From positions 30,479-94,478 of the forward strand of contig JBAXNV010000001.1 of the NCBI GenBank assembly GCA_037133595.1: a DNA stretch of 64,000 bases, written 5' to 3'. This stretch comes from a bacterium. GTDB lineage: Bacteria > Patescibacteriota > Microgenomatia > UBA1400 > UBA12108. The notes below the pieces were generated by a model. It had not been told where the DNA came from. It did no database searches and saw nothing but the letters and a program-made list of their open reading frames with translations. Numbering within the stretch: position 1 is the first letter of the stretch; every line of letters begins with the position of its first letter. The position numbers and the translations under genes were made by a program. Below are positions 1,648 through 51,125 of the stretch, one piece after another.

Positions 1648-1660
1648 GAATTAATCAAAT

Positions 1661-4056: not shown

Positions 4057-4063
4057 TAAGAAT

Positions 4064-8545: not shown

Positions 8546-8547
8546 CT

Positions 8548-13073: not shown

Positions 13074-13101
13074 AGTGTAATGATACAATAACCAATACAA
13101 G

Positions 13102-14133: not shown

Positions 14134-14142
14134 TATAACAAT

Positions 14143-16310: not shown

Positions 16311-16314
16311 AACC

Positions 16315-16647: not shown

Positions 16648-16675
16648 TCTATTTTCCAAGGTTATAATAGCGCAT

Positions 16676-18056: not shown

Positions 18057-18113
18057 ATGAAATGACTGTATCACATCTTGATATCTTGATAAACCCATAC
18101 ATACAACAACATA

Positions 18114-18520: not shown

Positions 18521-18534
18521 GATATCATGTCAAC

Positions 18535-20771: not shown

Positions 20772-21777
20772 ATCTACCAGCTCCTTTGCGTTCAATTATT
20801 TCCATACCAATCAGTCTTTGGAAATCAAGGGTGCGGGTAGCTTTTGCGCGAGTAGTGAGTTTGGCATAATCTCTATCGGTAATGTATCCATTCGTTTTAA
20901 TAAAGCCAATGATCTTATTATGATGAATCTCTAGGTTTGTTTCTGGCGAATCGGTGCGCTTTGGCAACATTTTTTGGACTCGCAATAATTCATCAATCAA
21001 ACCGGCGGTAAAATATTCAAGCCACGTGGTAAAGTCGATAGATTCTTTCAATTCATTGTAATCTCCATATTCACCTACAGTTTGAAAATATTTTGTCACA
21101 TTTTGGTTGTAGTAATTCTCAAAGCTAAACAAATTAAACGTATTAAGACCCATTTTTGCGAGCAACACCTTCGTTATCAAACGAGTAGTTCTACCGTTGC
21201 CATCCATAAATGGGTGAATAATAACCATTTGCTTATGAAAAATACCAGCCAAAATCAATGGATCAACCTTGGTTATATTTTTTTTAATATATTTAATCAA
21301 ATCCAACGTAAGGCTCTCAACAACATCAACCTCGGGTGGTAAATATACAATCTTTCCAGTTCTTGGGTCATTCACGACAACTGGCATTTTGCGTAGTCTA
21401 CCAGACTCTTGTTTGGGGAGTAGGTTTTGGGTAACTTGCTTGTGAGTCTGCAAGATAAGGGGGAGCGAAACCTCGATCTCGTTTGACTCAATTAATCTAC
21501 ATAAATTCTCAATAGCTAAGTTGTAGTTAATAACTTCACGCTCACTATCGCGGATATTGGTAGGTCGTGATTTTAGGAGTTGTTTTACTTCGGTAAGGGG
21601 CAGGGGATTGCCTTCGATACTGGTAGATGCAAAAGTCGAAACTTCCCTGGCAATAATCTCAAACTCCAAAAGAACCAATCTTGGGAATCGTCTATCGTTG
21701 AGGTCGTGAACGAGCGAATTTACCTTAGAAATATTTGCAAGTAACTGGTTCGAGATCAAAAATTTTGGCTCAAACAT
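20737..21777 (-). CDS. Fic family protein, class II (internal inhibitory helix)
   Basis: HPFMDGNGRTTRL Fic motif; STSIEGN matches [ST]xxxE[GN]; start set at the conserved MFEPKFLISNQLL. The listed TTG start at 21822 would translate the tandem repeats. Confidence 0.8.
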   Translation of the reverse strand: MFEPKFLISNQLLANISKVNSLVHDLNDRRFPRLVLLEFEIIAREVSTFASTSIEGNPLPLTEVKQLLKSRPTNIRDSEREVINYNLAIENLCRLIESNEIEVSLPLILQTHKQVTQNLLPKQESGRLRKMPVVVNDPRTGKIVYLPPEVDVVESLTLDLIKYIKKNITKVDPLILAGIFHKQMVIIHPFMDGNGRTTRLITKVLLAKMGLNTFNLFSFENYYNQNVTKYFQTVGEYGDYNELKESIDFTTWLEYFTAGLIDELLRVQKMLPKRTDSPETNLEIHHNKIIGFIKTNGYITDRDYAKLTTRAKATRTLDFQRLIGMEIIERKGAGRSTYYTLLGQDS

Positions 21778-21779
21778 AG

Positions 21780-21811
21780 TAGTCGAATAATAGTCGATTA
21801 TTAGTCGATTG
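21780..21811. repeat. three tandem 10-11 bp direct repeats (TAGTCGAATAA / TAGTCGATTAT / TAGTCGATTG) abutting the Fic start codon
   Basis: Read directly from the sequence; the same unit appears at 51064-51093 upstream of the second Fic gene. Confidence 0.7.
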
Positions 21812-21828
21812 TCAAGTAACAAGCCATC

Positions 21829-22563
21829 TTACACAATCCCCTCATACACCTTGGTCGCTTCTTCAATATCACCAAAGAACAATTGCTTGCCATTCTGTAG
21901 CACAAGCCCTTTGGTACAGTACTTTTTGACCATATCGGGGCTATGGCTCACCATTACCATAGTACTCCCAAGCTTCTTAAACTCGGCCATGCGAGCCAGA
22001 CACTTTTGCTGAAAGCTCTGATCTCCCACGGCCAGGATCTCATCAATTAGTAGTATATCGGGAGTTTCGGCAACAGCTACCGAGAAGGCGAGGCGCATAT
22101 ACATTCCCGAGGAATAGTGTTTGATCGGCTGGTCCATAAAGTTCTCAAGCTCGGCAAATTCGACAATATTATTGTATAGCTTATCCATATCTTTGCGCTT
22201 GATCCCGAGTATCGAGCCATTAAGGTATACATTCTCGCGCCCCGTAAGTTCTGGGTGAAATCCTGCACCAAGCTCGATAAGCGGCGCCACACGCCCATTC
22301 ACAGTTATTCGCCCATCAGAGGGCTTGGTAACACCCGCAATGATCTTAAGTAGGGTTGACTTGCCGCTACCGTTTCGCCCCATAATCCCCAGTGATTCTC
22401 CTTTGGCTAGTTCAAATTCAATCGAGGATAGTGCCGCAAAGTTGGTTTTGGTTTCTTTGCCAGAGAACAGGGCAGGGAGAAACTCCTTAAACGTTCGCTG
22501 TTTTTGCAGGCTATATTCTTTGCTTACGTTTTCAGCTTGTATGGCGCATGTTGGGTTAGACAT
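21829..22563 (-). CDS. ABC transporter ATP-binding protein, Wzt/TagH-like polysaccharide exporter
   Basis: Walker A GRNGSGKST; signature YSSGMYMRL; Walker B LLIDE; start at MSNPT, 4 nt after the permease stop. Confidence 0.8.
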   Translation of the reverse strand: MSNPTCAIQAENVSKEYSLQKQRTFKEFLPALFSGKETKTNFAALSSIEFELAKGESLGIMGRNGSGKSTLLKIIAGVTKPSDGRITVNGRVAPLIELGAGFHPELTGRENVYLNGSILGIKRKDMDKLYNNIVEFAELENFMDQPIKHYSSGMYMRLAFSVAVAETPDILLIDEILAVGDQSFQQKCLARMAEFKKLGSTMVMVSHSPDMVKKYCTKGLVLQNGKQLFFGDIEEATKVYEGIV

Positions 22564-23356
22564 AGTCGGCAAATCTCCCTTCCAGTTTCTTAAACACCAC
22601 AAACCCAATCCCAAAGAAAACGAGCGCAGTAACAGCGGCAATAGACAAGCTAACCATATTTGGCTCTTTGCCAGACAAGATAACTTGTCGATAGGCATTG
22701 ATAATCACAGACATAGGGTTAAGGGATAGCAAGAATCGGTACCTCTCGGGTATTACTTCCACTGGGTACATAATCGGAGTAAGGTACATCCACACAAGGA
22801 TAATTAGACCGAGCAGGTACTGGATATCACGGTAAAAAAGGTTAAAGGCCGAGACGAGTAGCGATAGCCCCATAGATAGTAAGACTTGGATCAAAAATAT
22901 CGGTAGTATCCACAGGTAGTGGATCGTAAGCGGGATATGAAAGATGAAAAGAAAAAGTATAAGTACGAGGCACGAGTAGCCAAAGTCCACAATCTTGGCG
23001 ATGATTGTGGCATAAACAAGGATTTCTCGGGGGAAGTAAATCTTGGTGATCAAATTGCTGTTACCCACCAGCGCCCCAGCCGATGACATTAGGCTAGAGG
23101 TAAAAAGGTTCCAGGGGAGTAGGGCAACAGTCAAAAAGATAATAAATGGCACACCAAGCGAGGGCACGTGTAGGATCTTGTCGAAAACAAAGCTCATCAC
23201 AATAAGCTGAAACAGCGGATTAAGTATTACCCATGCGTATCCTAGTACCGACTGCTTGTACCTCTGTGATATCTCGCGGTTGGCCAGATTCCAAAGTAGC
23301 TCTCGATGTTCCCAAAAAAGCTTAAGATTGACAGCCAACTTTTGCACAAGATTCAT
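22556..23356 (-). CDS. ABC-2 type transporter permease, Wzm/TagG-like
   Basis: 6 TM helices; immediately upstream of the Wzt-like ATPase. Confidence 0.7.
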   Translation of the reverse strand: MNLVQKLAVNLKLFWEHRELLWNLANREISQRYKQSVLGYAWVILNPLFQLIVMSFVFDKILHVPSLGVPFIIFLTVALLPWNLFTSSLMSSAGALVGNSNLITKIYFPREILVYATIIAKIVDFGYSCLVLILFLFIFHIPLTIHYLWILPIFLIQVLLSMGLSLLVSAFNLFYRDIQYLLGLIILVWMYLTPIMYPVEVIPERYRFLLSLNPMSVIINAYRQVILSGKEPNMVSLSIAAVTALVFFGIGFVVFKKLEGRFADYV

Positions 23357-23374
23357 ACGTCTAGTCTATCACAA

Positions 23375-24442
23375 CTATGATCGAAAAATATTTTCCCAAG
23401 TTAGGGGCGATAGTTGCTTTTCCAGATTAGCTAACTCGCCACTAAGGTCGTTAATGGATTTATATGTCTTAGTAATTTGGCTTACCCATGTTTTTGCGTT
23501 ACGCTCGTTAGCGTAAGGAATAATAGTTAGTAATTTTGATTTAATCCCTATCCCTTCTGCTCCAATTTCGGTCGTTATTATTGGTTTCCCATAAGAAAGA
23601 CTCTCTAGTATCTTGATTCTAGTCCCAGAACCAGAATAAATAGGTGCAACTAAGAAATCAATCTTTGAGTAAAAATCACGCAATTCGTCGATATGATCAA
23701 TTATTTCTACATGTTTGTTTTCGCTTAGCAATTTGTCAAACTTACCTAGTACCATCACGCGATATTCGTGTTCTCTCGTATTTAATGCGGGGAGAATATT
23801 CTCGGTAATAAAGTTGATAGCCGCAATATTAGGTGTATGCGATTGAGAGCCAATAAATCCAAGAGTCATAATTTTACTTGTTCTTGGCGGCAAAAAATGT
23901 ATCCCATCAATTCCGTTTGGAGTAATTAATATATTATTCATTCCAAATAAATTAGATAATGCGGCGGCATCTATCTTAGACATTGTGACAACTTGGTGGA
24001 ATCGCTTAAGGTAGTATTTTTCGTAGATATACACCTGTAGGCAGCTTGCGAGTCGCAGCAGTACCACGAAGGGATTATTGCTTTCCCATGCACGTCTCCA
24101 GAAAGAAACAGTAGATATGTCTAACGAAACAAATGTAGTAGGAACGTCGCGCGGCAGAAACTGCGCAAGATATAGCAACTGCGTGCCTTCTATTCTAATT
24201 TCATCAAAAGATTCATTCTCCAACAATTTGCGCAACTCAGGATTGTAATAATTGGTCATATGATAGGGGATGCCAGTTGTTATCGAAGTCCAAAGAGACT
24301 TTCTAACTACAGACACTTCCCTAAAGGTAATTTCATATTTTTGACTCAAGTATTTAAGAGTATTTTTTAGTCTTGTGGCACCACCATTATTTTGTGGTAG
24401 TAGTGGTATCCCGGAAATAAGTAGAAGTTTTAGTTTTTTCAT
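23375..24442 (-). CDS. family 4 glycosyltransferase
   Basis: GT-B architecture; first gene of the low-GC cassette. Confidence 0.6.
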   Translation of the reverse strand: MKKLKLLLISGIPLLPQNNGGATRLKNTLKYLSQKYEITFREVSVVRKSLWTSITTGIPYHMTNYYNPELRKLLENESFDEIRIEGTQLLYLAQFLPRDVPTTFVSLDISTVSFWRRAWESNNPFVVLLRLASCLQVYIYEKYYLKRFHQVVTMSKIDAAALSNLFGMNNILITPNGIDGIHFLPPRTSKIMTLGFIGSQSHTPNIAAINFITENILPALNTREHEYRVMVLGKFDKLLSENKHVEIIDHIDELRDFYSKIDFLVAPIYSGSGTRIKILESLSYGKPIITTEIGAEGIGIKSKLLTIIPYANERNAKTWVSQITKTYKSINDLSGELANLEKQLSPLTWENIFRS

Positions 24443-24486
24443 TACCGCCTATTTATAACATGTAGATGAGGATACATTCCCAATGT

Positions 24487-24517
24487 TTGACACTTATTGC
24501 TGTCACACATATATAAT
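24487..24517 (+). promoter_or_regulatory. sigma70-like promoter (TTGACA, 17 nt spacer, TATATA) for the GT2 gene at 24529
   Basis: Consensus-like hexamers read in the divergent intergenic region. Confidence 0.3.
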
Positions 24518-24528
24518 ACAACCTTATT

Positions 24529-25377
24529 ATGATAAAAATACTGAAGAAATATCACAACAGTTATCTAGTTTATAAAATGCTTCACAAGAAGGAATCTCTC
24601 TTTGGGAACAGAATCCAAGTTGTAGAAGGATTGGCACAGAACAACCTCAAACCTATAGATACTCAGATCAATCCAATTTCAATAATTATTCTTAATCATA
24701 ATAATGGAAACATCCTCCCAAAATGCCTGGACTCACTAATAAAATATAATGATTACGGTTATCGAATCATTGTGGTAGATAATTTATCAGCAGACAAATC
24801 TGTTGAGTTTTTAGGGAAAAAATACAAAAACATAATAACAATAGTACGTAATAAGATTAATGGATGTGCTTCTGGTAGAAACCTTGGGGCAATAGAGGCT
24901 GGTCAGGGATTATTAGTATTTCTTGACAGCGATCAGGGGCCAACAGCTCACAATTGGTTAGACAACTATCTTCAAATATTGTTATCAGATCCAAAGGTAG
25001 GAGCAATCGGTAGTAATGGAGGGTTCTTCACGGAAAGAGATCTTACCGGACCTTTACTAAGCCTGTTTCCGAATTTAGGGATGAAACAAGGCGTTATTTG
25101 TCGTACAAATATCGATTACCTAGAAACGAGTGGTTTTTTGATTAGGAAAACCTTATTTGATAAGATAGGGGGATTTGACGATCATTATGATCCATATATT
25201 TTTGAGGATGCAGACTTGTCGAGAAAAATTGTTAAGTCGAATCATTTACTATGTTATAGTCCCTATCTATCTGCTTATCATGATGCTCACAGTACAACCA
25301 AATCCGATCAGGCAGGCCAAGATTACTTAACACAATTTAGCAATAACGCGGCGTATTTTAGAAAAAAGTGGTTGTAA
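24529..25377 (+). CDS. family 2 glycosyltransferase
   Basis: ISIIILNHNNG...IIVVDNLSADKS...DSDQ. Confidence 0.65.
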   Translation: MIKILKKYHNSYLVYKMLHKKESLFGNRIQVVEGLAQNNLKPIDTQINPISIIILNHNNGNILPKCLDSLIKYNDYGYRIIVVDNLSADKSVEFLGKKYKNIITIVRNKINGCASGRNLGAIEAGQGLLVFLDSDQGPTAHNWLDNYLQILLSDPKVGAIGSNGGFFTERDLTGPLLSLFPNLGMKQGVICRTNIDYLETSGFLIRKTLFDKIGGFDDHYDPYIFEDADLSRKIVKSNHLLCYSPYLSAYHDAHSTTKSDQAGQDYLTQFSNNAAYFRKKWL

Positions 25378-26280
25378 TTTGTACTCCGTTGATAAGAGAC
25401 TTTCTTCATAAAACGGCTTTTCAGTTTGGTCAAACTGCTCTTTTGCATACACGCCAGCTACAGAATAGCCAATTCTATTCATCTGTCTAGTCATCTGGTG
25501 ATAAAACCTTGCGATTGATCCATCTATTCTAATTTTGTCCTGGGTTGGAACGACCTTCATTAATCGGATCCAAAATGCATTAGACTCTTCAGTGGCGCGC
25601 TGACTATAAGTACCTTGTCCCGGATGCTTCCTGGAGCAAAGTAGATAGTCTTTCATGAAGAGGATATTGTATTTTGGAAATAATCTTAGCCACATATCAT
25701 AATCCTGAGAAGTGCGAAGGCTTGGATCAAATAATCCTTCTTTAATTAAAATATTTTTAGGAATTAAGGTAGTACATCCGAAAACTAATCCTTTTACGAC
25801 GGGGTAGTAATGACATTGAAATTTTCTTACGTCGTGCACATTCTCGATGTTAACGGATTCGACGATATCTGCATTTTCATTAATTATTCGATAATTAGAA
25901 AACAATATTGTCTTATTTCGCAAATCTGCATCTATTTCATTCAACGTCTCTACTTGCTGCTCGATCTTATTGGGTTCAAACACGTCATCATGCGACAGCC
26001 AAGAGATATATTGTCCTTTAGCTTCAATTATCCCAATATTCAAAGCATCGGATACTCCACTATTCTTTTTCCCTATATATCTAATTTTATTTCCATAAGA
26101 TTTAACTATTTCTTCTGTATCATCAGTCGAGCCATCATTTACAACAATGACTTCGCAGTTTTTGTGGGTTTGCGCCAGTGCACTGTCTATGGCTTGGCAC
26201 AAGTATCTGGTACCATTGTAGACAGGAATTACGATAGAAACTAACAGATCATTGTTACTTTTATTCATCAGAGACAGCAA
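25327..26280 (-). CDS. family 2 glycosyltransferase
   Basis: VSIVIPVYNGTRYLCQAIDSALAQTHKNCEVIVVNDGSTDDT; paralogue of 27569..28696. Confidence 0.7.
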   Translation of the reverse strand: MLSLMNKSNNDLLVSIVIPVYNGTRYLCQAIDSALAQTHKNCEVIVVNDGSTDDTEEIVKSYGNKIRYIGKKNSGVSDALNIGIIEAKGQYISWLSHDDVFEPNKIEQQVETLNEIDADLRNKTILFSNYRIINENADIVESVNIENVHDVRKFQCHYYPVVKGLVFGCTTLIPKNILIKEGLFDPSLRTSQDYDMWLRLFPKYNILFMKDYLLCSRKHPGQGTYSQRATEESNAFWIRLMKVVPTQDKIRIDGSIARFYHQMTRQMNRIGYSVAGVYAKEQFDQTEKPFYEESLLSTEYKLQPLFSKIRRVIAKLC

Positions 26281-26292
26281 TCTTTCTTTGAT

Positions 26293-27582
26293 TTAGTCGA
26301 CTAACTCTAGAAACTTCAATCTGTCACGAACGATCCTACTAATATTTTCTGGACTAAAGTATTTATTAGCAGTATATTTACCCTCAACTATAAGTTTATT
26401 TCTCCAGACTGAATCAGAAACCATTCGATGCATGTGTGTTATTGCCTCATCAATATTTGGATTAGCCCAAATCAAACCATCACCGGGCTTTGAACCAACA
26501 TATTTGCCATTTACAGGAACTAGATCATAACCAACGAGTGCCGTATTCATATGTGTCATATACTGCATATTACCTGACCATGCAGTTGAAATTACCGGCG
26601 TGCCCAAAGACATAGCTTCTAGAGGCAACAAACCAAAACCTTCAGAACGATGCAAAGATATCACAGCATCTGATATCTGAACTAATGTTCTTTTTTCGAT
26701 ATCTGATAGATATTTTTCTATAAAATAAATATGCGGATAAGGCGACAATGCCTTCTTTAATTCTTGGATGTGTCTTCTATGTTTGTTTGAATAATTCAGT
26801 TTCAATACCAATCCAACATTATGGTCATCTGGGGAAAAAGCTTTTAAAAAAGCTTTAGCAACAGCATGAGGATTTTTTCGGGACACATAGCTCGTGCAAT
26901 CATAAGCAAACGTAAATATGAATATATTGCTGTCGATCTTAAAATGGTTTCTACCATCTTTTAGGATTGTTTTTTTTGGATTTGCGAATAGTGGAACTGT
27001 GATAACGGGAACGATTGATTTTTTCCCAATTGCAATTGTACAAAAATCAGAAAGAGTCCATATTTCGTGGAACATACTCAAATGACGGCTATAAATTTCA
27101 GGTAGTTCTTCTAGCTCCCATGCCAAATATCCGATATTAAAATATTTTTTGCCATCAAGGCCGAGATGTAACATCATTGCTGATGCATTTGAGGTAGCAT
27201 GACAAGAAAAAAGATTAACGCTGTATGGTTTTTTGCTTTTAAATTCTAATTTACATTTTTTAAGATCGGATAAATCAAATATATTATACGGAATTTGAGC
27301 ACTATCTAATAACTGTTGTAACGAGCGAGCTATTTCGCCAGCACTGTTTTTCAAATCATAAACGAAAAGATTTACGCCTTGTGGCAAATTACTAAATCTG
27401 CGACGATTTAATCTGACATTTTCATTGTACAAATAAATTTTTTGATAAAATGCATCTTTAAAATTGCCGTAAATTTTACCAGGTAAAACAGACTTTATAA
27501 TATGCTTTACTGAACGTATTACAGGGAATGTGTTAATCTTTATTGACAAGTGTTGTCTGTCAATTTGTTTATTTATGACCAT
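26293..27582 (-). CDS. family 4-like glycosyltransferase (GT-B)
   Basis: RSEGFGLLPLEAMSLGTPVISTAWSGN. Confidence 0.6.
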   Translation of the reverse strand: MVINKQIDRQHLSIKINTFPVIRSVKHIIKSVLPGKIYGNFKDAFYQKIYLYNENVRLNRRRFSNLPQGVNLFVYDLKNSAGEIARSLQQLLDSAQIPYNIFDLSDLKKCKLEFKSKKPYSVNLFSCHATSNASAMMLHLGLDGKKYFNIGYLAWELEELPEIYSRHLSMFHEIWTLSDFCTIAIGKKSIVPVITVPLFANPKKTILKDGRNHFKIDSNIFIFTFAYDCTSYVSRKNPHAVAKAFLKAFSPDDHNVGLVLKLNYSNKHRRHIQELKKALSPYPHIYFIEKYLSDIEKRTLVQISDAVISLHRSEGFGLLPLEAMSLGTPVISTAWSGNMQYMTHMNTALVGYDLVPVNGKYVGSKPGDGLIWANPNIDEAITHMHRMVSDSVWRNKLIVEGKYTANKYFSPENISRIVRDRLKFLELVD

Positions 27583-28696
27583 ATTTTGTCTTAATTTTAC
27601 TGCTTAAAAGTATAAATATTTTTTTTAATGCTTTCCAAAGCCCATATTTCTTGATTGCTTTGAAAGTTCTGGCAGGTATATCGTAACGCAAAAAAAGACG
27701 GATTGTTTTATGAGCAGATTTAGCAATAGTTTTTTCTTCACTAACCAATGAAACTGTATTTAAATTTCGCCTACCATACATTGTTTTAATACCTTTGCCT
27801 TCTGCTAATACCTCCACATAATCAAGTGCAATAGAATAGTCTGCATATGCAAAAAAATACTCCATATCAAGAAAAAACTGTGCTACTGTCGGAGATATTT
27901 GAAGGATTTCTTCATCGTTTAGATGATCTAGAATGTCAATATAGAGCAAACTATACTCGATATTACCCCGAGTATGAGATCTCCTACCTTGTCTGCTAGA
28001 TGATTCTCGAGCTGTAATTAGAACTTCATTTATATATAGGTGTGGAAACTTTGCAAATGCTCGGTAATAGAATTCAAAATCGTGGGCTACCAATGATGTT
28101 TCATCAAATAATCCAACTGTTTCAAATACTTTTTTTGAAAACAGGTGGGTGCAGCCATGTGTTTTATTGTAAATAACAGGATATAGCCACAAATCATTTC
28201 TTTTTGGATACTCGTCTCTATGTTGCTGGTAACCAGCAGTGGGAAATGTTCTCGTGTAATCTTCGTTCATTCCGTCCAAATCAGAAATTATAATAGTGTC
28301 TCTATTTTTCAATTTGGAGAGTTCTTCTATAGCTCGAGAAATCTTTTGTGGATAGTATAAATCATCATGACTTAGCCAAGAAAAATATTCTCCACGCATT
28401 TCTTTTATACCGAGATTGAGAGCAGTTGATGTTCCTCCATTTTTCTTAGAAAAATAGCGAATTTTATCACCATAAGACAATGCAATTTTTTCGGTGGCCC
28501 CATCATCATTTGATCCATCATTGATAACAATTATCTCTATGTTCTTATATGTTTGAGACAAGGCGCTATCAATAGCTTCACGAAGAAAATTTGAGCCGTT
28601 ATATACAGGGATCACGATTGATACGAGTGGATTCCAGCTTAATGATTTGATTATTATTGGCTTCTTTTTATTATTATTTATCATAACTTTGTCCAA
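27569..28696 (-). CDS. family 2 glycosyltransferase
   Basis: VSIVIPVYNGSNFLREAIDSALSQTYKNIEIIVINDGSNDDG. Confidence 0.7.
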   Translation of the reverse strand: MDKVMINNNKKKPIIIKSLSWNPLVSIVIPVYNGSNFLREAIDSALSQTYKNIEIIVINDGSNDDGATEKIALSYGDKIRYFSKKNGGTSTALNLGIKEMRGEYFSWLSHDDLYYPQKISRAIEELSKLKNRDTIIISDLDGMNEDYTRTFPTAGYQQHRDEYPKRNDLWLYPVIYNKTHGCTHLFSKKVFETVGLFDETSLVAHDFEFYYRAFAKFPHLYINEVLITARESSSRQGRRSHTRGNIEYSLLYIDILDHLNDEEILQISPTVAQFFLDMEYFFAYADYSIALDYVEVLAEGKGIKTMYGRRNLNTVSLVSEEKTIAKSAHKTIRLFLRYDIPARTFKAIKKYGLWKALKKIFILLSSKIKTKYGHK

Positions 28697-29790
28697 ATAG
28701 TTCTATTAACATATTCTGTGTAACTTGCAATAATTTTGACTACTTTTTGTGCCAAATGATCGACATCATAATCTTTAACAACGCCAATCTGACCAATTTG
28801 GCTCGTAACAATTTTTATAGAATTTAACACATTTTCTTTTTTTAACCCACTCATAATCAGCGTACCTTCATCCATGCCCTCTGGTCTTTCATGTGCTTGT
28901 CTAATCGTAATAGCAGGAAAAACTAACAGTGACGACTCTTCGGTAATAGTGCCGCTATCGGAGATCACACAGAAAGCATTTTGTTGCAATTTAATATAAT
29001 CAAAAAAACCAAAAGGTTTACTTATTCTGATTAATTCGTGCAACTCAATATTTTTCTCTATTAACAACTTTTGCGTTCTAGGATGACAGGAAAAAATTAT
29101 TGGCATCCTATATTGTTCACAAATTGCATTAAGTGAATTAACTAAGTCAGTAAAGTTACTCCAATTATCAATATTTTCCTCGCGATGTACGCTTAAAACA
29201 AAGTATTTTTTTGCTGTCAAATCTAGTTTTGTCAAAATTTCACTCTTCTCAATTAGTTTGCTATTTTCTCTAAGTACTTCTTTCATGCTCGAACCAACCT
29301 TGATAATAGTTTCTGGCCTAATACCTTCGGTAATTAGATATCTCCTAGCGTGTTCTGTAATTGTTAAATTAATGTCGCTTAAATGGTCAATAATTTTTCT
29401 GTTGATTTCTTCTGGCACTCTTTGGTCAAAACATCTATTGCCAGCTTCCATGTGAAAAATTGGAATTCTATTTCTTTTAGCAGAAATTACAGATAAGCAA
29501 GAATTGGTGTCCCCGTAAACAAGTAAAGCATCAGGTGTATTTTGTTTAAACAACTCGTCTGATTTACTAATAATATTGCCGATTGTCTCGGCAGTCGTTT
29601 TGCCCGTTGAGTTCATGAAATAATCTGGTTTTCTGATGCCCAATTCTTCAAAAAAAATCTCATTTAATTCATAGTCATAATTCTGACCAGTGTGAACTAA
29701 AATATGCTCGGTATACAAATCCAATTCTTTAATCACCTGCGACAACTTGATAATTTCTGGTCTTGTGCCAACAATGGTCATGACTTTCAT
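28681..29790 (-). CDS. UDP-N-acetylglucosamine 2-epimerase (non-hydrolysing), WecB/FnlC/Cap5G family
   Basis: MKVMTIVGTRPEIIKL...HTGQNYD...; family-specific N-terminal signature. Confidence 0.8.
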   Translation of the reverse strand: MKVMTIVGTRPEIIKLSQVIKELDLYTEHILVHTGQNYDYELNEIFFEELGIRKPDYFMNSTGKTTAETIGNIISKSDELFKQNTPDALLVYGDTNSCLSVISAKRNRIPIFHMEAGNRCFDQRVPEEINRKIIDHLSDINLTITEHARRYLITEGIRPETIIKVGSSMKEVLRENSKLIEKSEILTKLDLTAKKYFVLSVHREENIDNWSNFTDLVNSLNAICEQYRMPIIFSCHPRTQKLLIEKNIELHELIRISKPFGFFDYIKLQQNAFCVISDSGTITEESSLLVFPAITIRQAHERPEGMDEGTLIMSGLKKENVLNSIKIVTSQIGQIGVVKDYDVDHLAQKVVKIIASYTEYVNRTIWTKL

Positions 29791-29828
29791 ATTATTCTCC
29801 CAAAGATAATTTTTGATAAAACTTAAAT

Positions 29829-30857
29829 CTATTTTTCCAATTCATTCTGAATGTAATCGAGTGATTTCAATTTTTCAACAACCTCGTCGACGGTCAGTCG
29901 CTTGGTGTTATGAGAGGTATAATCCTCTTCCTTAGATATGTTCTTGTCTCCTACGCTAAAGTATTTTGAATAATTAAGGTCGCGGTTATCTGCTGGTATC
30001 CGGAAAAAATCTCCCAGATCCTCTGCCTTGGCCATTTCTTCGCGGTTAACAAGCGATTCAAATAATTTTTCACCATGTCTAGATCCGATAATTTTTAAGT
30101 TATTTTTTGCTTTAAAAATTATCAAAAGCGCCTTGGCCAAATCAAGGATAGTAGAGGCAGGTGCTTTTTGAACAAAAATATCCCCACCCAGTGCATGTTC
30201 ATAAGCATAAAGCACTAATTTAACAGATTCGTCAAGTGACATAAGAAATCTAGTCATGTCAGGATCGGTGACGGTAATATCCTTATTCTCTTTTATTTGT
30301 TTGATAAATAATGGAATAACTGATCCTCTAGATGCCATAACATTCCCGTATCGTGTAGCACAAAATATTGTTTTGCCGGGATTAGTGTTGCGGGATTTAG
30401 CCAGCATAAGTTTCTCCATCATTGCTTTCGACATTCCCATGGCATTAATGGGGTACACGGCTTTGTCAGTACTCAAGACGATAACTTTTTCTACATTATT
30501 GTGCTCTGCGGCATTCAATACGTTGTCTGCACCCAATATGTTTGTTCTTACTGCTTCCATCGGGAAAAATTCACACGAAGGAACCTGCTTAAGGGCTGCG
30601 GCGTGGAATACAAAGTTTACACCTCTCATTGCGTTATCAATTGTTTCCAGGTTCCTAACATCACCAATAATAAATTTAACTCTCATATCAGCAATTTCTA
30701 TTCTCATTTTCTCTTGTTTTTCTTCATCTCTACTAAAAATCCTAATTTCACCAATATCAGTATTATCCAAAAAATGTCGTAGCATTTTGTTGCCGAATGA
30801 ACCAGTACCACCAGTGATAAGAAGTGTTTTATTTTTAAAACTTATTGTTTTTTGCAT
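29829..30857 (-). CDS. UDP-GlcNAc 4,6-dehydratase, CapD/FnlA/PseB family
   Basis: LLITGGTGSFGN Rossmann motif; 342 aa; polysaccharide biosynthesis protein CapD-like. Confidence 0.8.
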   Translation of the reverse strand: MQKTISFKNKTLLITGGTGSFGNKMLRHFLDNTDIGEIRIFSRDEEKQEKMRIEIADMRVKFIIGDVRNLETIDNAMRGVNFVFHAAALKQVPSCEFFPMEAVRTNILGADNVLNAAEHNNVEKVIVLSTDKAVYPINAMGMSKAMMEKLMLAKSRNTNPGKTIFCATRYGNVMASRGSVIPLFIKQIKENKDITVTDPDMTRFLMSLDESVKLVLYAYEHALGGDIFVQKAPASTILDLAKALLIIFKAKNNLKIIGSRHGEKLFESLVNREEMAKAEDLGDFFRIPADNRDLNYSKYFSVGDKNISKEEDYTSHNTKRLTVDEVVEKLKSLDYIQNELEK

Positions 30858-31752
30858 ATTGATCTCGATTATGTTTATAAAATTCTGAACCTAAAAAATC
30901 ATTATACATGTCAAAGATTAGTTTATTCCAGCTAGGCACATCATAATCAATAGATATCTTAAACTTGTCCGAATCAAGAGATCTATCAATTTCAATAGAT
31001 TCATCAGCACTTATAATAATTTTCTTCTGGTATATTTCCGCAACGATGGTAAGTAAATCATGTTTTGAAATTGGTCGAGCAGAAATGTGATGAAGTCCGA
31101 AAAGTTTATCATTGGGAATTATTTTATTTATCAACAATCTGGAAAATTCCAGCGTAGTCAACCCGGAGAATATTGCCTTTTTGTAACCTTTAACCGTAGC
31201 TTCTTGGCTCAAAAACCAGTTTATAAGGCTGATATTCGAACTTAGTTCATGTCCAATAATAGATGTTCGTAGAGTAAGAGTATTGGTACGATCGCTTACT
31301 TCACCCAAATACTTGGTCATACCATACACGTCATGACATGTGGGTTCATCATCTTCGTGGTAATTACCAGATTTACCATCAAACACACAATCAGTGGCTA
31401 TGGTAATAAATCTACAGTTATTTTTTTCACACAACTCTGAAACGAGGTGGGGGAATAACGCATTAATCTCTATACAATCTCTTATATTACTAGACTTATT
31501 CTGTTTGATGATGCCAATACAATTTATTACTATATCTGGATGAAGTGATTTAATTATACTTTCTACAGTATCTATCTTGTTGGCATAAACCCCATCAAAT
31601 ATTTTTAGATCAAAAATATTGGGTAATAGGCCAGCAAAGCTATTTTTGCTGGTAACAGTTCCATATACATCAAATTCTCGATTTTTTGACAAGGTTTCAA
31701 ATACTTTGTGACCTAACATTCCGCTCGCGCCAAGGACAATAATTCTTTTCAT
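30835..31752 (-). CDS. NAD(P)-dependent sugar-nucleotide reductase/epimerase (RmlD substrate-binding-like; FnlB-like role)
   Basis: MKRIIVLGASGMLG Rossmann N-terminus; operonic with the dehydratase and 2-epimerase. Confidence 0.55.
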   Translation of the reverse strand: MKRIIVLGASGMLGHKVFETLSKNREFDVYGTVTSKNSFAGLLPNIFDLKIFDGVYANKIDTVESIIKSLHPDIVINCIGIIKQNKSSNIRDCIEINALFPHLVSELCEKNNCRFITIATDCVFDGKSGNYHEDDEPTCHDVYGMTKYLGEVSDRTNTLTLRTSIIGHELSSNISLINWFLSQEATVKGYKKAIFSGLTTLEFSRLLINKIIPNDKLFGLHHISARPISKHDLLTIVAEIYQKKIIISADESIEIDRSLDSDKFKISIDYDVPSWNKLIFDMYNDFLGSEFYKHNRDQYAKNNKF

Positions 31753-31835
31753 AATCTAGCTAAGATTATAGCAATTAAGTTTGTGGCAATATAGGGTATC
31801 TTCACCTAATCAATTCTACTTGGTACAATTCAAAT

Positions 31836-32444
31836 ATGGCTCAGATCAGCTTTCCATCAGACGACAATATCACTTACCTTTTTCTCGACTGGGGCGAGCT
31901 CGGCGCTCTTACCCAGGTACTAGCTACCAAGATCTTAGATTCTGGCGCTGCTCCATATGATCGTATCATAGCGCTTGCAACAGGCGGCCAGACGATGAGC
32001 AAAGCCATTAAGGATTATCTCAATATCCAAAATAGTAGCAGTATGCATATCTCTTTTTACACCGGTATTGGCACAACCAACAAAACTCCCGTTATCACCC
32101 AGTCAATAGCCACCGATCTGCAGGGTGAGCGCGTGCTTGTGTTCGACGATGTCAACGACACTGGGGCAACTCTCGAAGTAGCCAAGGCATATCTCCAAAT
32201 GCGAGGGGTCAAGAGTATCGACACCGCGTGTCTTTTGCAAAAGCCCCGCACCAAATGCCCTTCAACTTTCTTTGGCGACAGTACCGAGAGCTGGATTATC
32301 TTTCCCGATGAGGTAAGAGAAACCATCACCCTTCTTAGCTCTCGCTGGAGCAAGCAGGGGGTAAGTAAGCAAGATATCCACTCTCGCCTCAACCAGATCG
32401 GGTTTCTCGACTCACATCTAACGCTTATTGAGAACTATTCGTAA
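31836..32444 (+). CDS. phosphoribosyltransferase (type I PRTase) family protein
   Basis: VLVFDDVNDTGATL PRPP-binding motif. Confidence 0.5.
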   Translation: MAQISFPSDDNITYLFLDWGELGALTQVLATKILDSGAAPYDRIIALATGGQTMSKAIKDYLNIQNSSSMHISFYTGIGTTNKTPVITQSIATDLQGERVLVFDDVNDTGATLEVAKAYLQMRGVKSIDTACLLQKPRTKCPSTFFGDSTESWIIFPDEVRETITLLSSRWSKQGVSKQDIHSRLNQIGFLDSHLTLIENYS

Positions 32445-32447
32445 CAT

Positions 32448-33110
32448 CTATCCTGTTTTGGTAAGGTCGAGCTTCTTTACTACCAAGGTAATACTTGATT
32501 TGGCTTCTTCCCAATCAATATTCTGGTGCATTCTAGGCATTGGTTCGTGGTCTGCATCCTCAAAATAAACGAGCGATTTGAGGATGTGGGGGAGGTTGTA
32601 ATCAATATTTGGGTATTTATCTGGTAGATAATCGAGCAAGTCATTGAGCTTATATGTCTTGAGGATGGCGTACAGGTCTATAAAATCTTTTTTACTACCG
32701 CGCATACCAATTGTTTGAAGCTTGGTAAGAGCGACATCGAGAACAGAGCTAAGCAGAATGCTATCATATGGAACAAAATCAGACAATAAAGGGTAAGGAT
32801 AACCCAAGAATTGGACTTTTACTCCACGAATGTAGCAATTAAGCGTACTGTTGCCCAAAGTCGTGTTGGTTAGTGGGCCCAATACAGAAAGCTCATTCTG
32901 CAAAACAATGGGGTCAAAGTCGACAGAGCTAAAAAAATCCAAATCTTCTGACTCTCGATGACCAAGTTGAAGCGAAAGTGCAGTCCCACCCGATAAATAA
33001 AAGTTCTGTAAGAAAGAAGGTTTGCTAGACTGGATCTGCTCCAATAACCGGGCCGTACTGGGCGGTAATGTGTCTGGGAATAGTTGGTTCATGGCAAGTA
33101 CACCTTCCAA
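32448..33110 (-). CDS. nucleotidyltransferase AbiEii/AbiGii-type toxin (DUF1814), type IV TA / abortive infection
   Basis: SGGTALSLQLGHRESEDLDFF matches the AbiEii GGTAL...R.S.D(I/L)DF signature. Confidence 0.6.
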   Translation of the reverse strand: MEGVLAMNQLFPDTLPPSTARLLEQIQSSKPSFLQNFYLSGGTALSLQLGHRESEDLDFFSSVDFDPIVLQNELSVLGPLTNTTLGNSTLNCYIRGVKVQFLGYPYPLLSDFVPYDSILLSSVLDVALTKLQTIGMRGSKKDFIDLYAILKTYKLNDLLDYLPDKYPNIDYNLPHILKSLVYFEDADHEPMPRMHQNIDWEEAKSSITLVVKKLDLTKTG

Positions 33111-33319
33111 AAATTGGCAGACTTCTTGCTCAACTTAAACTTGTCTAGTCTTTGCCTAATTGAATCTATTCTTGTTTTACCAAATAGCCAGACGAGTGCC
33201 GATCTGTCACCTCGATCGAGGAGAGTTTGCGTTATGTAATTTTCGTGTTTTTCCCAAGAAAGATCACCCAAATCATCCCCCCAAAAAAATCTCGCTATGT
33301 TTTTAGGTAATCCAGACAC
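33089..33319 (-). CDS. small protein overlapping the AbiEii gene by 22 nt; candidate cognate antitoxin or partner
   Basis: 76 aa; translationally coupled upstream of the nucleotidyltransferase; no motif recognised. Confidence 0.3.
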   Translation of the reverse strand: MSGLPKNIARFFWGDDLGDLSWEKHENYITQTLLDRGDRSALVWLFGKTRIDSIRQRLDKFKLSKKSANFWKVYLP

Positions 33320-33364
33320 CTACATATTATATCAAGTTTTTACCCATACTGGCAGCTTGCAATC

Positions 33365-34723
33365 ATGTACAATTACCTCATGCAAACACTACTTGTTGCC
33401 GCACTTGCCCTACTACTACGCATTCCTTTTCTCTCCCAATCTCTCTGGCTCGACGAGGCGATAGAGGCACTCGCTCTTCAGGGCAAAATGGGCCCCCTCC
33501 TCACCTACGCTCTTGCCGATTTTCAGCCACCTCTTTATCACGGCCTGCTCTATGTATGGACTCAGCTTGTTGGAACGAGCGAAGTGGCGCTACGCCTCCC
33601 CTCGCTACTTGCTGGGGTAGGGGTGGTAGTTGTCGGGCTCAAGCTGGCCGAGTTGTTGGCTGGCAAAAGGGCAGGGCTCATTGTGGGGCTACTTCTTGCA
33701 ACCAATCCTCTTCTTATCTACTACTCGGTAGAAGGCAGAACATACATGCTCACCACCTTCTTTGTCACTCTTTCGTTTTACTGCCTTTTTCGCTTGCTTC
33801 AAAATGCTAGTAAATCTCTCTCGCTCCTATACATGCTTGCAACAATCGGCATTGTCTGGACAAGCTATCTAGGTGCTCTGATTGTTGTGCTACAGGGTCT
33901 TTATCTCCTCGTCAACAAAAAGTGGTCACTTATTCTCCCGCTCGCACTTGGTGCTGGTACGATCGTCTTTTGGCTACCATCTTTTGTAAAGTCACTCGGG
34001 GTCGGGGGCACCAATCTAGCAACAAGCCCCATGTGGGCGAGTGTTGTTGGGCAGTTTAGCTGGAAGTCGCTCCCACTCACGTGGGTCAAGTTTGTGTTGG
34101 GTAGGATTTCGTTTGATAACAAATTAATTTATGCTGGGGTTGTTGGCCTCGTTGGGCTTTTGCATTTGTATATATTAAAAGGCTTTGTTCCAAAGCTCAA
34201 AGTTCCAAGTTCCAAGCTTCTGCTGCTTTGGCTTGTCGGCCCCGTCGTTCTTGGCCTAGTAATTACCAACTTTATCCCGGTCTATCAGTTCTTTCGCGTG
34301 CTCTTTGTCCTCCCAGCGTATTTTATGTTGTTGGGGCTAGCACTCTCTAATAGGCCTAGTAAGATCACAATCTACGCACTTGTTGCCACTCAACTCATCT
34401 TTCTCGGAGTTTACGCATTTTCTCCCCGCTTTCATCACGAAGACTGGCGAGCGCTTGTGGCAACCTATGGGGAAAACGCCACCTACGCGCTACCTAGTAT
34501 CGAACAAAACGCTCCACTACTATATTATGGCGTAGCAAGAGCCAGCATGCTTGAGCCCAAGGTAGGTATTGGTACAGCTTCAAATCAAATCGTCTACATT
34601 CGCTATGCCGAAGAAGTATTTGATGCCGGTGGGGTTGGGCGTGCCAATCTGCTCTCAAGTGGGTATACTAAGCTAAGCGAGCAAGTATTCTCAGGTCTTG
34701 CCACAGAGGTCTACGCAAAATGA
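33365..34723 (+). CDS. GT-C glycosyltransferase, ArnT/PMT-like (GT39/GT83)
   Basis: LWLDEAIEA DE motif in the first loop; more than 10 TM helices. Confidence 0.6.
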   Translation: MYNYLMQTLLVAALALLLRIPFLSQSLWLDEAIEALALQGKMGPLLTYALADFQPPLYHGLLYVWTQLVGTSEVALRLPSLLAGVGVVVVGLKLAELLAGKRAGLIVGLLLATNPLLIYYSVEGRTYMLTTFFVTLSFYCLFRLLQNASKSLSLLYMLATIGIVWTSYLGALIVVLQGLYLLVNKKWSLILPLALGAGTIVFWLPSFVKSLGVGGTNLATSPMWASVVGQFSWKSLPLTWVKFVLGRISFDNKLIYAGVVGLVGLLHLYILKGFVPKLKVPSSKLLLLWLVGPVVLGLVITNFIPVYQFFRVLFVLPAYFMLLGLALSNRPSKITIYALVATQLIFLGVYAFSPRFHHEDWRALVATYGENATYALPSIEQNAPLLYYGVARASMLEPKVGIGTASNQIVYIRYAEEVFDAGGVGRANLLSSGYTKLSEQVFSGLATEVYAK

Positions 34724-51093: not shown

Positions 51094-51125
51094 GTCAAAC
51101 CAATAACACATGTTAAAATAAGTTC

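What the first reader, a model, noticed from the sequence alone, without database searches (positions are those of the whole stretch)
23375..31752. 8.4 kb low-GC cassette (about 30% GC against about 50% flanks) carrying GT2/GT4 genes and an FnlABC-like nucleotide-sugar trio
Sampled 60-nt blocks inside this minus-strand gene block run 25-33% GC, for example 24541-24600 at about 25% and 27601-27660 at about 28%. The adjacent ABC transporter is about 47%, PRTase about 53% and dcw genes about 55-58%. The sharp compositional boundaries at about 23375 and 31752 point to horizontal acquisition of a glycan-variation module. The HigBA region 18176-18819 is also low-GC.
Basis: seen in the sequence. Interest (0 to 1): 0.55.

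Follow-up and report, generated by a model that had tools for sequence, protein, structure and literature searches.

The report
Swapped-in low-GC surface-sugar gene cassette
An 8.4-kb block of eight sugar-building genes in an uncultured Microgenomates (CPR) bacterium is clearly AT-richer than its surroundings and was very probably acquired by gene exchange, the same process that varies O-antigen and capsule loci in well-studied bacteria, so it is a clean but ordinary example.

Summary
The low-GC block is real and its borders are right. Unsupervised segmentation puts change points at about 23450 and 31890. The contrast is about half of what was claimed: 34.8% GC inside against 44.3% outside.

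The block holds five glycosyltransferases and a three-enzyme nucleotide-sugar set. It sits directly upstream of, and on the same strand as, a conserved Wzm/Wzt ABC exporter. The reductase of the trio is RmlD/QnlA-like, not FnlB-like. The predicted product is therefore UDP-L-RhaNAc or UDP-L-QuiNAc rather than UDP-L-FucNAc.

The host is a Roizmanbacteria-like Microgenomates (CPR) bacterium. In its relatives wzm-wzt is conserved at 70-82% amino-acid identity, while the genes upstream differ in every genome examined.

Collinear copies of parts of the cassette (78-83% nucleotide identity) occur on two other metagenome contigs. One of them abuts a ~57% GC backbone whose genes are only 27-39% identical to the window's own flanks. 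Cassette genes far more similar than their flanks is a signature of horizontal exchange.

No integrase, tRNA or flanking repeats were found, which points to recombinational replacement. The donor is unidentified and no cross-phylum origin is shown. This is a new member of a well-known kind, and interest is modest.

The parts
30835..31752 (-). RmlD-like SDR C4-reductase (305 aa), QnlA/WbvR-type. First gene of the cassette; overlaps the next gene by 23 nt.
   Evidence: Pfam RmlD_sub_bind 1.1e-20. NCBIfam hits only rmlD models (TIGR01214, 79.5 bits, below cutoff) and not the FnlB-type WbcJ model NF047837. PDB best hits are dTDP-4-dehydrorhamnose reductases 2ggs and 3sc6. GC 32.9%, GC3 28%.
29829..30857 (-). 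FnlA/CapE/WbvB-type UDP-GlcNAc 4,6-dehydratase/5(3)-epimerase (342 aa).
   Evidence: Polysacc_synt_2 1.9e-104 plus Polysacc_syn_2C. TIGR04130 FnlA 491 bits (cutoff 730), ahead of PseB at 321 bits. PDB CapE 3vvb E = 1e-137. Best database hits 84% (unnamed) and 80% Candidatus Shapirobacteria.
28681..29790 (-). Non-hydrolysing UDP-HexNAc 2-epimerase (WecB/FnlC/QnlB family, 366-369 aa).
   Evidence: Epimerase_2 1.9e-90. TIGR00236 wecB 241.9 bits, above the 210 cutoff. 88% aa identity to L094.
27569..28696 (-). GT2 glycosyltransferase 'GT2c' (371-375 aa).
   Evidence: Glycos_transf_2 7.8e-29. 88% aa to L094, 80% to L093, 75% to the Spirochaetota-labelled MAG L178.
26293..27582 (-). GT4 glycosyltransferase 'GT4b' (429 aa). 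Homology with L093 and L094 stops at its stop codon.
   Evidence: Glycos_transf_1 4.6e-13. Best hits 83% aa (P0242, P0243). The nucleotide alignments with L093 and L094-L097 all end at window position 26291.
25327..26280 (-). GT2 glycosyltransferase 'GT2b' (313-317 aa).
   Evidence: Glycos_transf_2 9.1e-32. 53% aa to the L093 counterpart.
24529..25377 (+). GT2 glycosyltransferase 'GT2p' (282 aa), on the opposite strand. Its 3' end overlaps the 3' end of GT2b by 51 nt.
   Evidence: Glycos_transf_2 1.5e-18. The L093 homologue (52% aa) is also on the opposite strand with the same 51-nt overlap, L093 2852-2902.
23375..24442 (-). GT4 glycosyltransferase 'GT4a' (355 aa). Last cassette gene, 18 nt upstream of wzm.
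   Evidence: Glyco_trans_1_4 1.4e-14. Homologues at 35-40% aa occur in L003 (directly upstream of wzm), L028 and L093.
22556..23356 (-). Wzm/TagG-type ABC-2 permease (266 aa). A conserved, host-composition exporter gene that forms the left anchor of the variable position. It is outside the low-GC segment but functionally linked to it.
   Evidence: ABC2_membrane 4.6e-19. Galactan Wzm/RfbD model 1.4e-22. 65-80% aa in Microgenomates/Roizmanbacteria. GC 44.1%, GC3 53.9%.
21829..22563 (-). Wzt/TagH-type ABC ATPase (244 aa). Nucleotide-binding domain only, no C-terminal carbohydrate-binding domain.
   Evidence: ABC_tran 3e-22. TagH and Wzt models 1e-52 to 1e-67, covering only the NBD. 75-82% aa in relatives.
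31753..31835 (.). 83-bp divergent intergenic region between the cassette and the PRTase gene; the right compositional border. Contains TGCTATAAT (31773-31765, minus strand) 12 nt upstream of the first ATG, a possible extended -10 element.
   Evidence: Sequence read directly. The consensus scan did not flag it and its overall count equals the shuffles, so the promoter role is inference only.

Best explanation
The segment is the variable, serotype-like part of an ABC-transporter-dependent cell-surface glycan locus in a Roizmanbacteria-like Microgenomates (CPR) bacterium.

Proposed working:
1. Three enzymes convert UDP-GlcNAc into a 6-deoxy-L-HexNAc donor. These are the FnlA/WbvB-type dehydratase-epimerase, then the RmlD/QnlA/WbvR-type C4-reductase, then the WecB/QnlB/WbvD-type 2-epimerase. 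The most likely product is UDP-L-RhaNAc and/or UDP-L-QuiNAc.
2. Five glycosyltransferases (three GT2, two GT4) assemble a polymer on a lipid carrier at the cytoplasmic face of the membrane.
3. The co-oriented, immediately downstream Wzm/Wzt transporter exports it.

The eight-gene segment is not native in composition. It came, as a mosaic of sub-blocks, from a pool of roughly 30-35% GC glycan modules shared among CPR and possibly other bacteria. It was installed by recombination next to the conserved wzm-wzt anchor, not by a site-specific mobile element.

Shown here: composition, gene content, variability of the position, and sharing of the cassette across unlike backgrounds. Inferred: the sugar product, the polymer, co-transcription, the recombination mechanism, and the selective reason (antigenic, phage-receptor or host-attachment variation).
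For: Composition.
- 34.8% against 44.3% GC. Change points at 23450 and 31890. Lowest tetranucleotide correlation in the window.
- Internal control: 18 other GT genes in the window are 39.8-49.1% GC.

Gene content and layout.
- Domain and family assignments.
- There are 18 nt between GT4a and wzm, and wzm and wzt overlap by 8 nt on the same strand.

Host identity.
- Wzm relatives at 65-80% are named Microgenomates, Roizmanbacteria, Beckwithbacteria or Patescibacteria.

Variable position.
- wzm/wzt are 70-82% conserved, but the upstream content differs in L003-L008, L015, L091 and L092.
- In 10 of the 13 relatives' loci (11 of 14 counting the window) the upstream stretch (up to 8.4 kb) is 3-14 GC points below wzm.

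Sharing across backgrounds.
- L094 is collinear over 5.3 kb at 78% nt (wecB 88%, GT2c 88%, GT4b 83% aa).
- L093 carries GT2c-GT4b-GT2b-GT2p-GT4a at 31-38% GC, abutting genes with GC3 64-81%.
- Those L093 flanking genes are 27-39% aa, same-order homologues of the window's flippase, PMT_2, GT4 and GT4.

Not an assembly chimera.
- An NCBI MAG contig of 95.6 kb carries wzm, GT4a, GT4b, fnlA and the PRTase under accession numbers that fit the same ten-gene order (MEI6690161, 162, 165, 168, 170). Its GT4b differs from the window's by one residue.

No mobility hallmarks.
- No tRNA. No meaningful flanking repeats.

Pathway logic.
- FnlA + QnlA (annotated as an RmlD-type reductase) + QnlB, equivalent to WbvB/R/D, gives UDP-L-QuiNAc (PMC6467956; PMC6765297).
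- The rmlD-fnlA-wecB trio occurs together with GT2c/GT4b homologues in L094 and L178.
Against: - No donor was identified. The closest copies are only 78-83% nt identical and come from unlabelled short contigs.
- The named nearest relatives of the sugar genes are in the host's own Microgenomates group. The transfer may therefore be intra-lineage, and for the sugar trio old or partly vertical. L008 has the same architecture at the same position, with identities (54-73%) similar to those of wzm/wzt (72-75%).
- Lower GC upstream of wzm recurs in most relatives. This would also fit a locus-specific compositional bias.
- The orthology of the L093 flanks with the window's flanks rests on low identities plus gene order.
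- No initiating phosphoglycosyltransferase lies in or next to the cassette. The nearest Bac_transf gene is at 46889-47521.
- The product sugar is inferred from family membership below equivalog cutoffs.
- The only genome-wide GC baseline available is this 64-kb window.
Confidence: 0.75

Rival explanations
1. The cassette is native and vertically inherited. Its low GC is a locus-specific property, for example relaxed or diversifying selection, selection for low expression, or AT-biased mutation in a poorly expressed glycan operon. It is not a trace of transfer.
For: In 10 of the 13 relatives' loci the stretch upstream of wzm is 3-14 GC points lower than wzm, so the pattern is systematic. L008, a Microgenomates MAG, has rmlD-fnlA-wecB-GT2-GT2-wzm-wzt in the same order, with identities comparable to wzm/wzt. 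No mobility genes, tRNA or repeats were found.
Against: Eighteen other GT/GT-C genes in the same window are not low-GC. The closest wzm relatives (80% and 77%) carry entirely different genes at this position. GT2c-GT4b are 80-83% aa identical to L093, while the homologous flanks are only 27-39% identical and differ by more than 10 GC points. In L178 the same GT pair is GC-richer than its surroundings (40% against about 30%), so the genes are not intrinsically AT-rich.
Confidence: 0.12
2. The cassette was acquired from a different phylum, such as a low-GC Bacillota, Bacteroidota or Spirochaetota donor. This is what the reader's proposed BLAST test was meant to reveal.
For: A GT2c homologue at 75% aa and a GT4b homologue at 58% aa, together with the same rmlD-fnlA-wecB trio, lie in a MAG labelled Spirochaetota (GCA_043803405.1, locus GC 32%). 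FnlA-type proteins at 72-75% occur in Geobacter and relatives.
Against: The best named FnlA hit is Candidatus Shapirobacteria (80%). The best overall hits (84%, 83%) sit in 30-32% GC contigs whose neighbours look like CPR glycan loci. A Microgenomates MAG has the same architecture at the same position. MAG taxonomic labels in this data set are unreliable, since Microgenomates-like wzm loci are labelled 'uncultured Gammaproteobacteria'. FnlA is conserved at about 73% across phyla, so its identities are weakly informative.
Confidence: 0.08
3. The low-GC block is a metagenome assembly chimera: sequence from a co-occurring low-GC organism mis-joined into this contig.
For: The source is a short-read metagenome contig (ENA ERZ27300156 k141_355275). 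Low-GC Microgenomates carrying homologous wzm and cassette genes exist and could seed mis-joins.
Against: Both borders fall in short intergenic spacers of a coherent operon. A 95.6-kb NCBI MAG contig carries wzm, GT4a, GT4b, fnlA and the PRTase under accession numbers that fit the same uninterrupted order. It differs by one residue in GT4b, so it is not the identical sequence. There is no extended nucleotide repeat at the borders that could cause a mis-join. L093 shows an analogous junction in an unrelated sample.
Confidence: 0.03

Closest known systems
Low-GC, serotype-specific O-antigen and capsule gene clusters of Enterobacteriales and other Proteobacteria, exchanged by homologous recombination between conserved flanking genes
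   Same: A block of nucleotide-sugar and GT genes with GC well below the genome. Conserved anchor genes next to it. Different gene sets at the same position in relatives. The same locus type in divergent backgrounds. No mobility genes. Surface-polysaccharide locus distance smaller than genome distance is the accepted signature of locus exchange (PMC7305143).
   Different: The host is an uncultured CPR (Microgenomates) bacterium, presumably without an outer membrane or LPS. Only one conserved anchor (wzm-wzt) could be shown; the right flank (PRTase) is not syntenic in relatives. Exchange partners differ by more than 10 GC points.
ABC-transporter-dependent polysaccharide pathways (Wzm/Wzt O-antigens, mycobacterial galactan Wzm/Wzt, TagGH wall teichoic acid export)
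   Same: An adjacent ABC-2 permease plus ATPase on the same strand directly after the GT genes. No Wzy or Wzx inside the cassette.
   Different: Wzt is only 244 aa, without a carbohydrate-binding domain. No chain terminator and no initiating transferase were recognised in the cluster. The acceptor, the lipid carrier and the final attachment site in a CPR envelope are unknown.
UDP-L-QuiNAc / UDP-L-RhaNAc pathway: WbvB/WbvR/WbvD of Vibrio cholerae O37, equivalent to FnlA/QnlA/QnlB of E. coli, Plesiomonas and Rickettsia pso
   Same: A FnlA-type dehydratase/epimerase, an RmlD-type reductase and a 2-epimerase encoded together (PMC6765297; PMC6467956).
   Different: The gene order here is reductase-dehydratase-epimerase. 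Identities to the characterised enzymes were not measured. Scores are below equivalog cutoffs, and no product chemistry is available.
FnlABC / CapEFG / WbjBCD UDP-L-FucNAc pathway
   Same: The first enzyme (FnlA/CapE, PDB 3vvb E = 1e-137) and the last (2-epimerase) belong to the same families.
   Different: The middle enzyme is not FnlB/CapF/WbcJ-like. It is 305 aa and matches only RmlD models and structures, with no match to NF047837.

Membership tests
Horizontally exchanged serotype-type glycan cassette (O-antigen/capsule-locus paradigm) | Base composition and oligonucleotide signature distinct from the host genome, with borders at gene boundaries | tested here: met
   34.8% against 44.3% GC. 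Change points at 23450 and 31890. Tetranucleotide correlation 0.68 against a median of 0.88. Other GT genes are 39.8-49.1% GC. The baseline is the 64-kb window only.
Horizontally exchanged serotype-type glycan cassette (O-antigen/capsule-locus paradigm) | Conserved flanking gene(s), with different gene content at the same position in related genomes | tested here: met
   wzm/wzt are 70-82% aa in nine relatives, and the upstream content differs in each. Only the left anchor is conserved; the right flank is not syntenic.
Horizontally exchanged serotype-type glycan cassette (O-antigen/capsule-locus paradigm) | Cassette genes much more similar between two genomes than the surrounding homologous genes | tested here: met
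   Window against L093: GT2c 80% aa, GT4b 83% aa, 83% nt. Flanks: flippase 30%, PMT_2 27%, GT4 33% and 39%, in the same order. Flank GC3 is 64-81% against 40-52%. Orthology of the flanks is inferred from gene order.
Integrative genomic island / mobile element | Integrase or transposase, tRNA target, flanking direct repeats | tested here: not met
   No tRNA in the window. Only short chance-level repeats in 20000-34000. No recombinase domain among the ORFs scanned.
ABC-transporter-dependent polysaccharide biosynthesis cluster | Wzm-type ABC-2 permease and Wzt-type ATPase encoded with the GT genes | tested here: met
   ABC2_membrane and ABC_tran. Wzm/RfbD, TagH and Wzt NCBIfam models match below equivalog cutoffs. 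Same strand, 18-nt gap to GT4a.
ABC-transporter-dependent polysaccharide biosynthesis cluster | Initiating polyprenyl-phosphate sugar-phosphate transferase (WecA/TagO/WbaP type) available | tested here: inconclusive
   None among the eight cassette genes or the immediate flanks. A Bac_transf gene lies 15 kb away at 46889-47521 in another cluster. The rest of the genome was not seen.
FnlABC (UDP-L-FucNAc) pathway | FnlA-type UDP-GlcNAc 4,6-dehydratase/5-epimerase | tested here: met
   TIGR04130 is the best model (491 bits, below its 730 cutoff). CapE and FnlA structures match at E = 1e-134 to 1e-137. This is family-level membership only.
FnlABC (UDP-L-FucNAc) pathway | FnlB/CapF/WbcJ-type reductase | tested here: not met
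   The 305-aa reductase matches only RmlD models and RmlD structures. It does not match NF047837.
FnlA/QnlA/QnlB (WbvB/R/D) UDP-L-RhaNAc / UDP-L-QuiNAc pathway | RmlD-type C4-reductase encoded next to FnlA-type and 2-epimerase genes | tested here: met
   RmlD_sub_bind 1.1e-20. It overlaps fnlA by 23 nt. wecB TIGR00236 scores above its cutoff. The pathway definition comes from PMC6467956 and PMC6765297. No direct comparison with QnlA or WbvR sequences was made.
FnlA/QnlA/QnlB (WbvB/R/D) UDP-L-RhaNAc / UDP-L-QuiNAc pathway | Enzymatic product is UDP-L-RhaNAc or UDP-L-QuiNAc | not testable with these tools
   Requires enzyme assays with NMR or MS.

The most novel reading that the evidence does not exclude
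CPR/Microgenomates bacteria, and perhaps unrelated neighbours in the same habitats, draw on a common pool of glycan modules. These modules stay near 30-35% GC whatever the host composition (44-46% here, about 57% in L093). They are re-plugged next to different exporters: Wzm/Wzt here, and a Wzx-like flippase in L093. This would amount to a community-level cassette-exchange system for surface-glycan switching in episymbiotic bacteria, possibly with a still unseen vector or with selection that keeps the modules AT-rich.
Probability: 0.15. Interest if true: 0.55.

Novelty: new member of a known kind. Interest (0 to 1): 0.3.

Why it matters
Surface glycans are the interface of CPR bacteria with their host cells and their phages, and almost nothing is known about them experimentally. 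This locus shows that the cassette-exchange logic familiar from O-antigen and capsule loci also operates in Microgenomates. It has one conserved exporter anchor and a hypervariable, compositionally foreign GT/sugar block. The locus also predicts a specific rare sugar (L-RhaNAc or L-QuiNAc) on the cell surface. That makes it useful as a marker for strain typing and for studying recombination in CPR metagenomes. It does not change any concept.

Tried and rejected
- Exact-protein contig look-ups for flank and cassette proteins returned only the source contig or nothing, so they gave no strain-level presence/absence comparison.
- The one metagenome-contig scan, run with a GT4b alignment, used generic GT4 motifs. 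It returned almost only 30-38% relatives (best 48%, L098) and no further cassette copies.
- The promoter/terminator scan gave counts equal to the shuffles and was uninformative.
- The repeat search found no att-like or IS-like borders, and there is no tRNA. An integrative-island model was rejected on this basis.
- An 'empty site' could not be defined, because the PRTase flank is not syntenic in any relative fetched.
- The FnlABC assignment was rejected for the reductase step.
- The AbiEii gene next to the closest fnlA relative (L083) is not detectably homologous to the window's AbiEii-like ORF, and its 201-aa neighbour is not the PRTase. No shared 'TA-linked module' can therefore be claimed.

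Full report
**Observation.**
The window is 43.1% GC. The flagged stretch 23375-31752 is 34.8% GC against 44.3% for everything else. The left side is 41.8% and the right side 46.1%. The stretch is the lowest-GC 8.4-kb segment of the window.

They fall at 23450 and 31890, with log-likelihood ratios of 65 and 125. The stated borders are therefore correct to within about 100 bp.

All eight ORFs inside have GC 32.9-37.2% and GC3 25-35%. The other 54 ORFs average 44.1% GC (Mann-Whitney p = 4e-8). The twelve housekeeping ORFs at 49.4-64 kb have GC 45.0-48.9%. A tetranucleotide signature normalised for base composition also marks the block as the most deviant segment, with a correlation of 0.68 against a median of 0.88.

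The contrast is 9.5 points, not 20. The PRTase is 48.8% GC and the dcw genes are 45-49%. In the HigBA region only higB is low (31.9%).

**Anatomy.**
Read 5' to 3' on the minus strand, the block encodes the following:
- an RmlD-like reductase (30835-31752);
- a FnlA/CapE-type UDP-GlcNAc 4,6-dehydratase/5-epimerase (29829-30857), which overlaps the reductase gene by 23 nt;
- a WecB-family 2-epimerase (28681-29790), which scores above the TIGR00236 cutoff;
- GT2 (27569-28696), GT4 (26293-27582) and GT2 (25327-26280);
- a GT2 on the opposite strand (24529-25377), whose 3' end overlaps the preceding gene by 51 nt;
- GT4 (23375-24442).

Eighteen nucleotides further on, on the same strand, come wzm (22556-23356) and wzt (21829-22563). 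This is a TagG/TagH- or Wzm/Wzt-type exporter whose ATPase has no carbohydrate-binding extension. These two genes have host-like composition, 44-47% GC.

The block is therefore the biosynthetic half of an ABC-transporter-dependent glycan operon.

The reductase matches only RmlD models and structures, not the FnlB/WbcJ model. In the literature, FnlA plus an RmlD-type reductase (QnlA/WbvR) plus a 2-epimerase (QnlB/WbvD) makes UDP-L-QuiNAc via UDP-L-RhaNAc (PMC6467956; PMC6765297). 'FnlABC-like' is thus right for two of the three enzymes, and the predicted sugar changes accordingly.

**Context.**
- The whole window from 1 to about 49 kb is a very large glycan region. It contains many GT2 and GT4 genes, five PMT_2-type GT-C proteins, a Polysacc_synt flippase, a Wzy_C protein, an acyltransferase and a Bac_transf gene.
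- It is interspersed with HigBA, two Fic genes and an AbiEii-like ORF.
- It is followed by recO, a class II aminoacyl-tRNA synthetase, mraZ-rsmH-ftsI-mur genes and murA.
- There is no tRNA, no recombinase and no meaningful flanking repeat.
- Window 21836-42444 is identical to ENA metagenome contig ERZ27300156 k141_355275.

**Host and variability of the position.**
The Wzm protein has hundreds of relatives at 65-80% identity. Those that carry names are Microgenomates group, Candidatus Roizmanbacteria, Beckwithbacteria or Patescibacteria.

In the species-representative genomes and in the two closest metagenomic relatives (wzm 80% and 77%), wzm-wzt are conserved at 70-82% aa. What lies upstream differs in every case:
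- a GT4a homologue only (L003);
- an inverted fnlA (L010);
- a DegT/methyltransferase/acetyltransferase set (L092);
- a STELLO/epimerase/GT4 set (L091);
- in one Microgenomates MAG (L008), the same rmlD-fnlA-...-wecB-GT2-GT2-wzm-wzt architecture, at 42-73% identity.

wzm GC3 follows each host, ranging from 24% to 73%. In 10 of the 13 relatives' loci the upstream stretch is 3-14 points poorer in GC than wzm. So wzm-wzt is a long-resident anchor, and the position upstream of it is a hypervariable slot that is usually AT-richer.

**Evidence for transfer.**
Function is not the cause of the low GC. Eighteen other GT/GT-C genes in the same window have GC 39.8-49.1% and do not overlap the cassette (p = 1e-6).

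The closest homologues of the cassette lie on low-GC contigs:
- FnlA: 84% (L083, 30% GC), 80% (Candidatus Shapirobacteria, 26.6% GC) and 79% (L088, 37.5% GC).
- L094 (31.8% GC) is collinear with window 26291-31539 at 78% nt. Its amino-acid identities are wecB 88%, GT2c 88%, GT4b 83%, fnlA 77% and rmlD 60%.

The most telling comparison is with contig L093.
- It carries GT2c (80% aa), GT4b (83% aa, 83% nt over 1870 nt), GT2b (53%), the opposite-strand GT2 (52%, with the same 51-nt overlap) and GT4a (35%). This block is at 31-38% GC, with GC3 of 21-36%.
- It lies directly next to a flippase, an epimerase, a PMT_2-like protein and two GT4 genes whose GC3 is 64-81%.

Two distantly related backbones of different base composition therefore carry a much more similar, equally AT-rich cassette. 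This is the relative-distance signature used to call surface-polysaccharide locus exchange (PMC7305143).

The cassette is itself mosaic. Homology with both L093 and L094 ends exactly at the GT4b stop codon (window 26291), and identities differ between sub-blocks.

A MAG labelled Spirochaetota (L178) has GT2c (75%) and GT4b (58%) together with the same rmlD-fnlA-wecB trio. There the GT pair is GC-richer (40%) than its roughly 30% surroundings. These genes are therefore not intrinsically AT-rich, and they travel.

**Artefact check.**
- An NCBI MAG contig of 95.6 kb carries wzm, GT4a, GT4b, fnlA and the PRTase as MEI6690161, 162, 165, 168 and 170. This numbering fits the same uninterrupted ten-gene order.
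- Its GT4b differs from the window's by one residue, so it is not the identical sequence.
- Both borders lie in short intergenic spacers of a coherent operon.
- A chimera is unlikely, but read-level confirmation was not possible.

**What is not shown.**
- The donor is unknown. The Spirochaetota label is the only hint, and several MAG labels in the set are evidently wrong.
- The sugar trio could be older at this position than the GT block, as L008 suggests.
- A locus-specific AT bias cannot be fully excluded as a contributor to the recurrent pattern.
- The sugar product, co-transcription with wzm-wzt, the lipid acceptor and the biological role (antigenic, phage-receptor or host-attachment variation) are all inferences.

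**Verdict.**
The interpretation as a horizontally exchanged glycan-variation module is supported, with a corrected pathway assignment. The phenomenon is the well-known low-GC, recombination-exchanged polysaccharide cassette, seen here in a CPR bacterium. It is a new member of a known kind and of modest interest (0.3).

Noticed in passing
window 1-49440: Almost 50 kb of continuous glycan-biosynthesis genes: more than 25 GT2/GT4 genes, five PMT_2-type GT-C proteins, a Polysacc_synt flippase, Wzy_C, an acyltransferase, a hexapeptide transferase, a mannose-1-P guanylyltransferase-like gene, Bac_transf and a DUF4012 protein. This is a large share of what is presumably a small CPR genome.
   Followed up: partly
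window 1-16650 versus 31900-64000: There is a second compositional tier. The left-hand glycan region is about 40-41% GC (GC3 35-45%), against about 46% (GC3 40-57%) on the right. The window is therefore a three-level mosaic, not cassette against a uniform host.
   Followed up: no
window 18176-18819, 20737-21822, 32448-33110, 49999-51111: Toxin-antitoxin or defence-type genes are scattered through the glycan region: HigB(Gp49)/HigA-HTH, two Fic/DOC proteins (361 and 370 aa; the first directly follows wzt and is 38% GC), and an AbiEii-like ORF with only a partial Pfam match and no adjacent antitoxin gene.
   Followed up: no
window 59056-61326: A single 756-aa ORF combines Mur ligase (MurC-like) domains with MurB (FAD_binding_4 + MurB_C) domains, an apparent MurC-MurB fusion in the dcw region.
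   Followed up: no
L093 4900-5150 (Logan SRR28641019_30): GC jumps from about 33% to about 58-60% within about 200 bp, between the GT4a homologue and a Polysacc_synt flippase (GC3 27% to 81%). This is a sharper border than in the window, and the cassette there sits next to a Wzx-like flippase rather than Wzm/Wzt.
   Followed up: partly
L178 9000-13000 (GCA_043803405.1, labelled Spirochaetota): GT2c/GT4b homologues are GC-richer (39-41%) than the surrounding 25-34% locus, the reverse anomaly of the one in the window.
   Followed up: no
L005, L006, L012, L028 (genome contigs): MAGs labelled 'uncultured Gammaproteobacteria' or 'Pseudomonadales' carry wzm/wzt at 54-75% identity to this Microgenomates locus. 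L012 also has the UDG neighbour. The taxonomic labels of these TPA bins look wrong.
   Followed up: no
window 17391-18098; L010 18799-19455; L012 20049-20702: A uracil-DNA glycosylase-family gene lies a few kb downstream of wzt in the window, and 9-10 kb downstream in two more distant relatives (56% aa). This hints at a conserved wzm-wzt...UDG backbone into which Fic, the flippase, a 201-aa ORF and HigBA are inserted here.
   Followed up: no
window 31765-31773 (minus strand): TGCTATAAT, a perfect extended -10 motif, lies 12 nt upstream of the ATG of the first cassette gene, with no -35 and no Shine-Dalgarno sequence. This would imply a near-leaderless transcript. It was not flagged by the consensus scan.
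   Followed up: no
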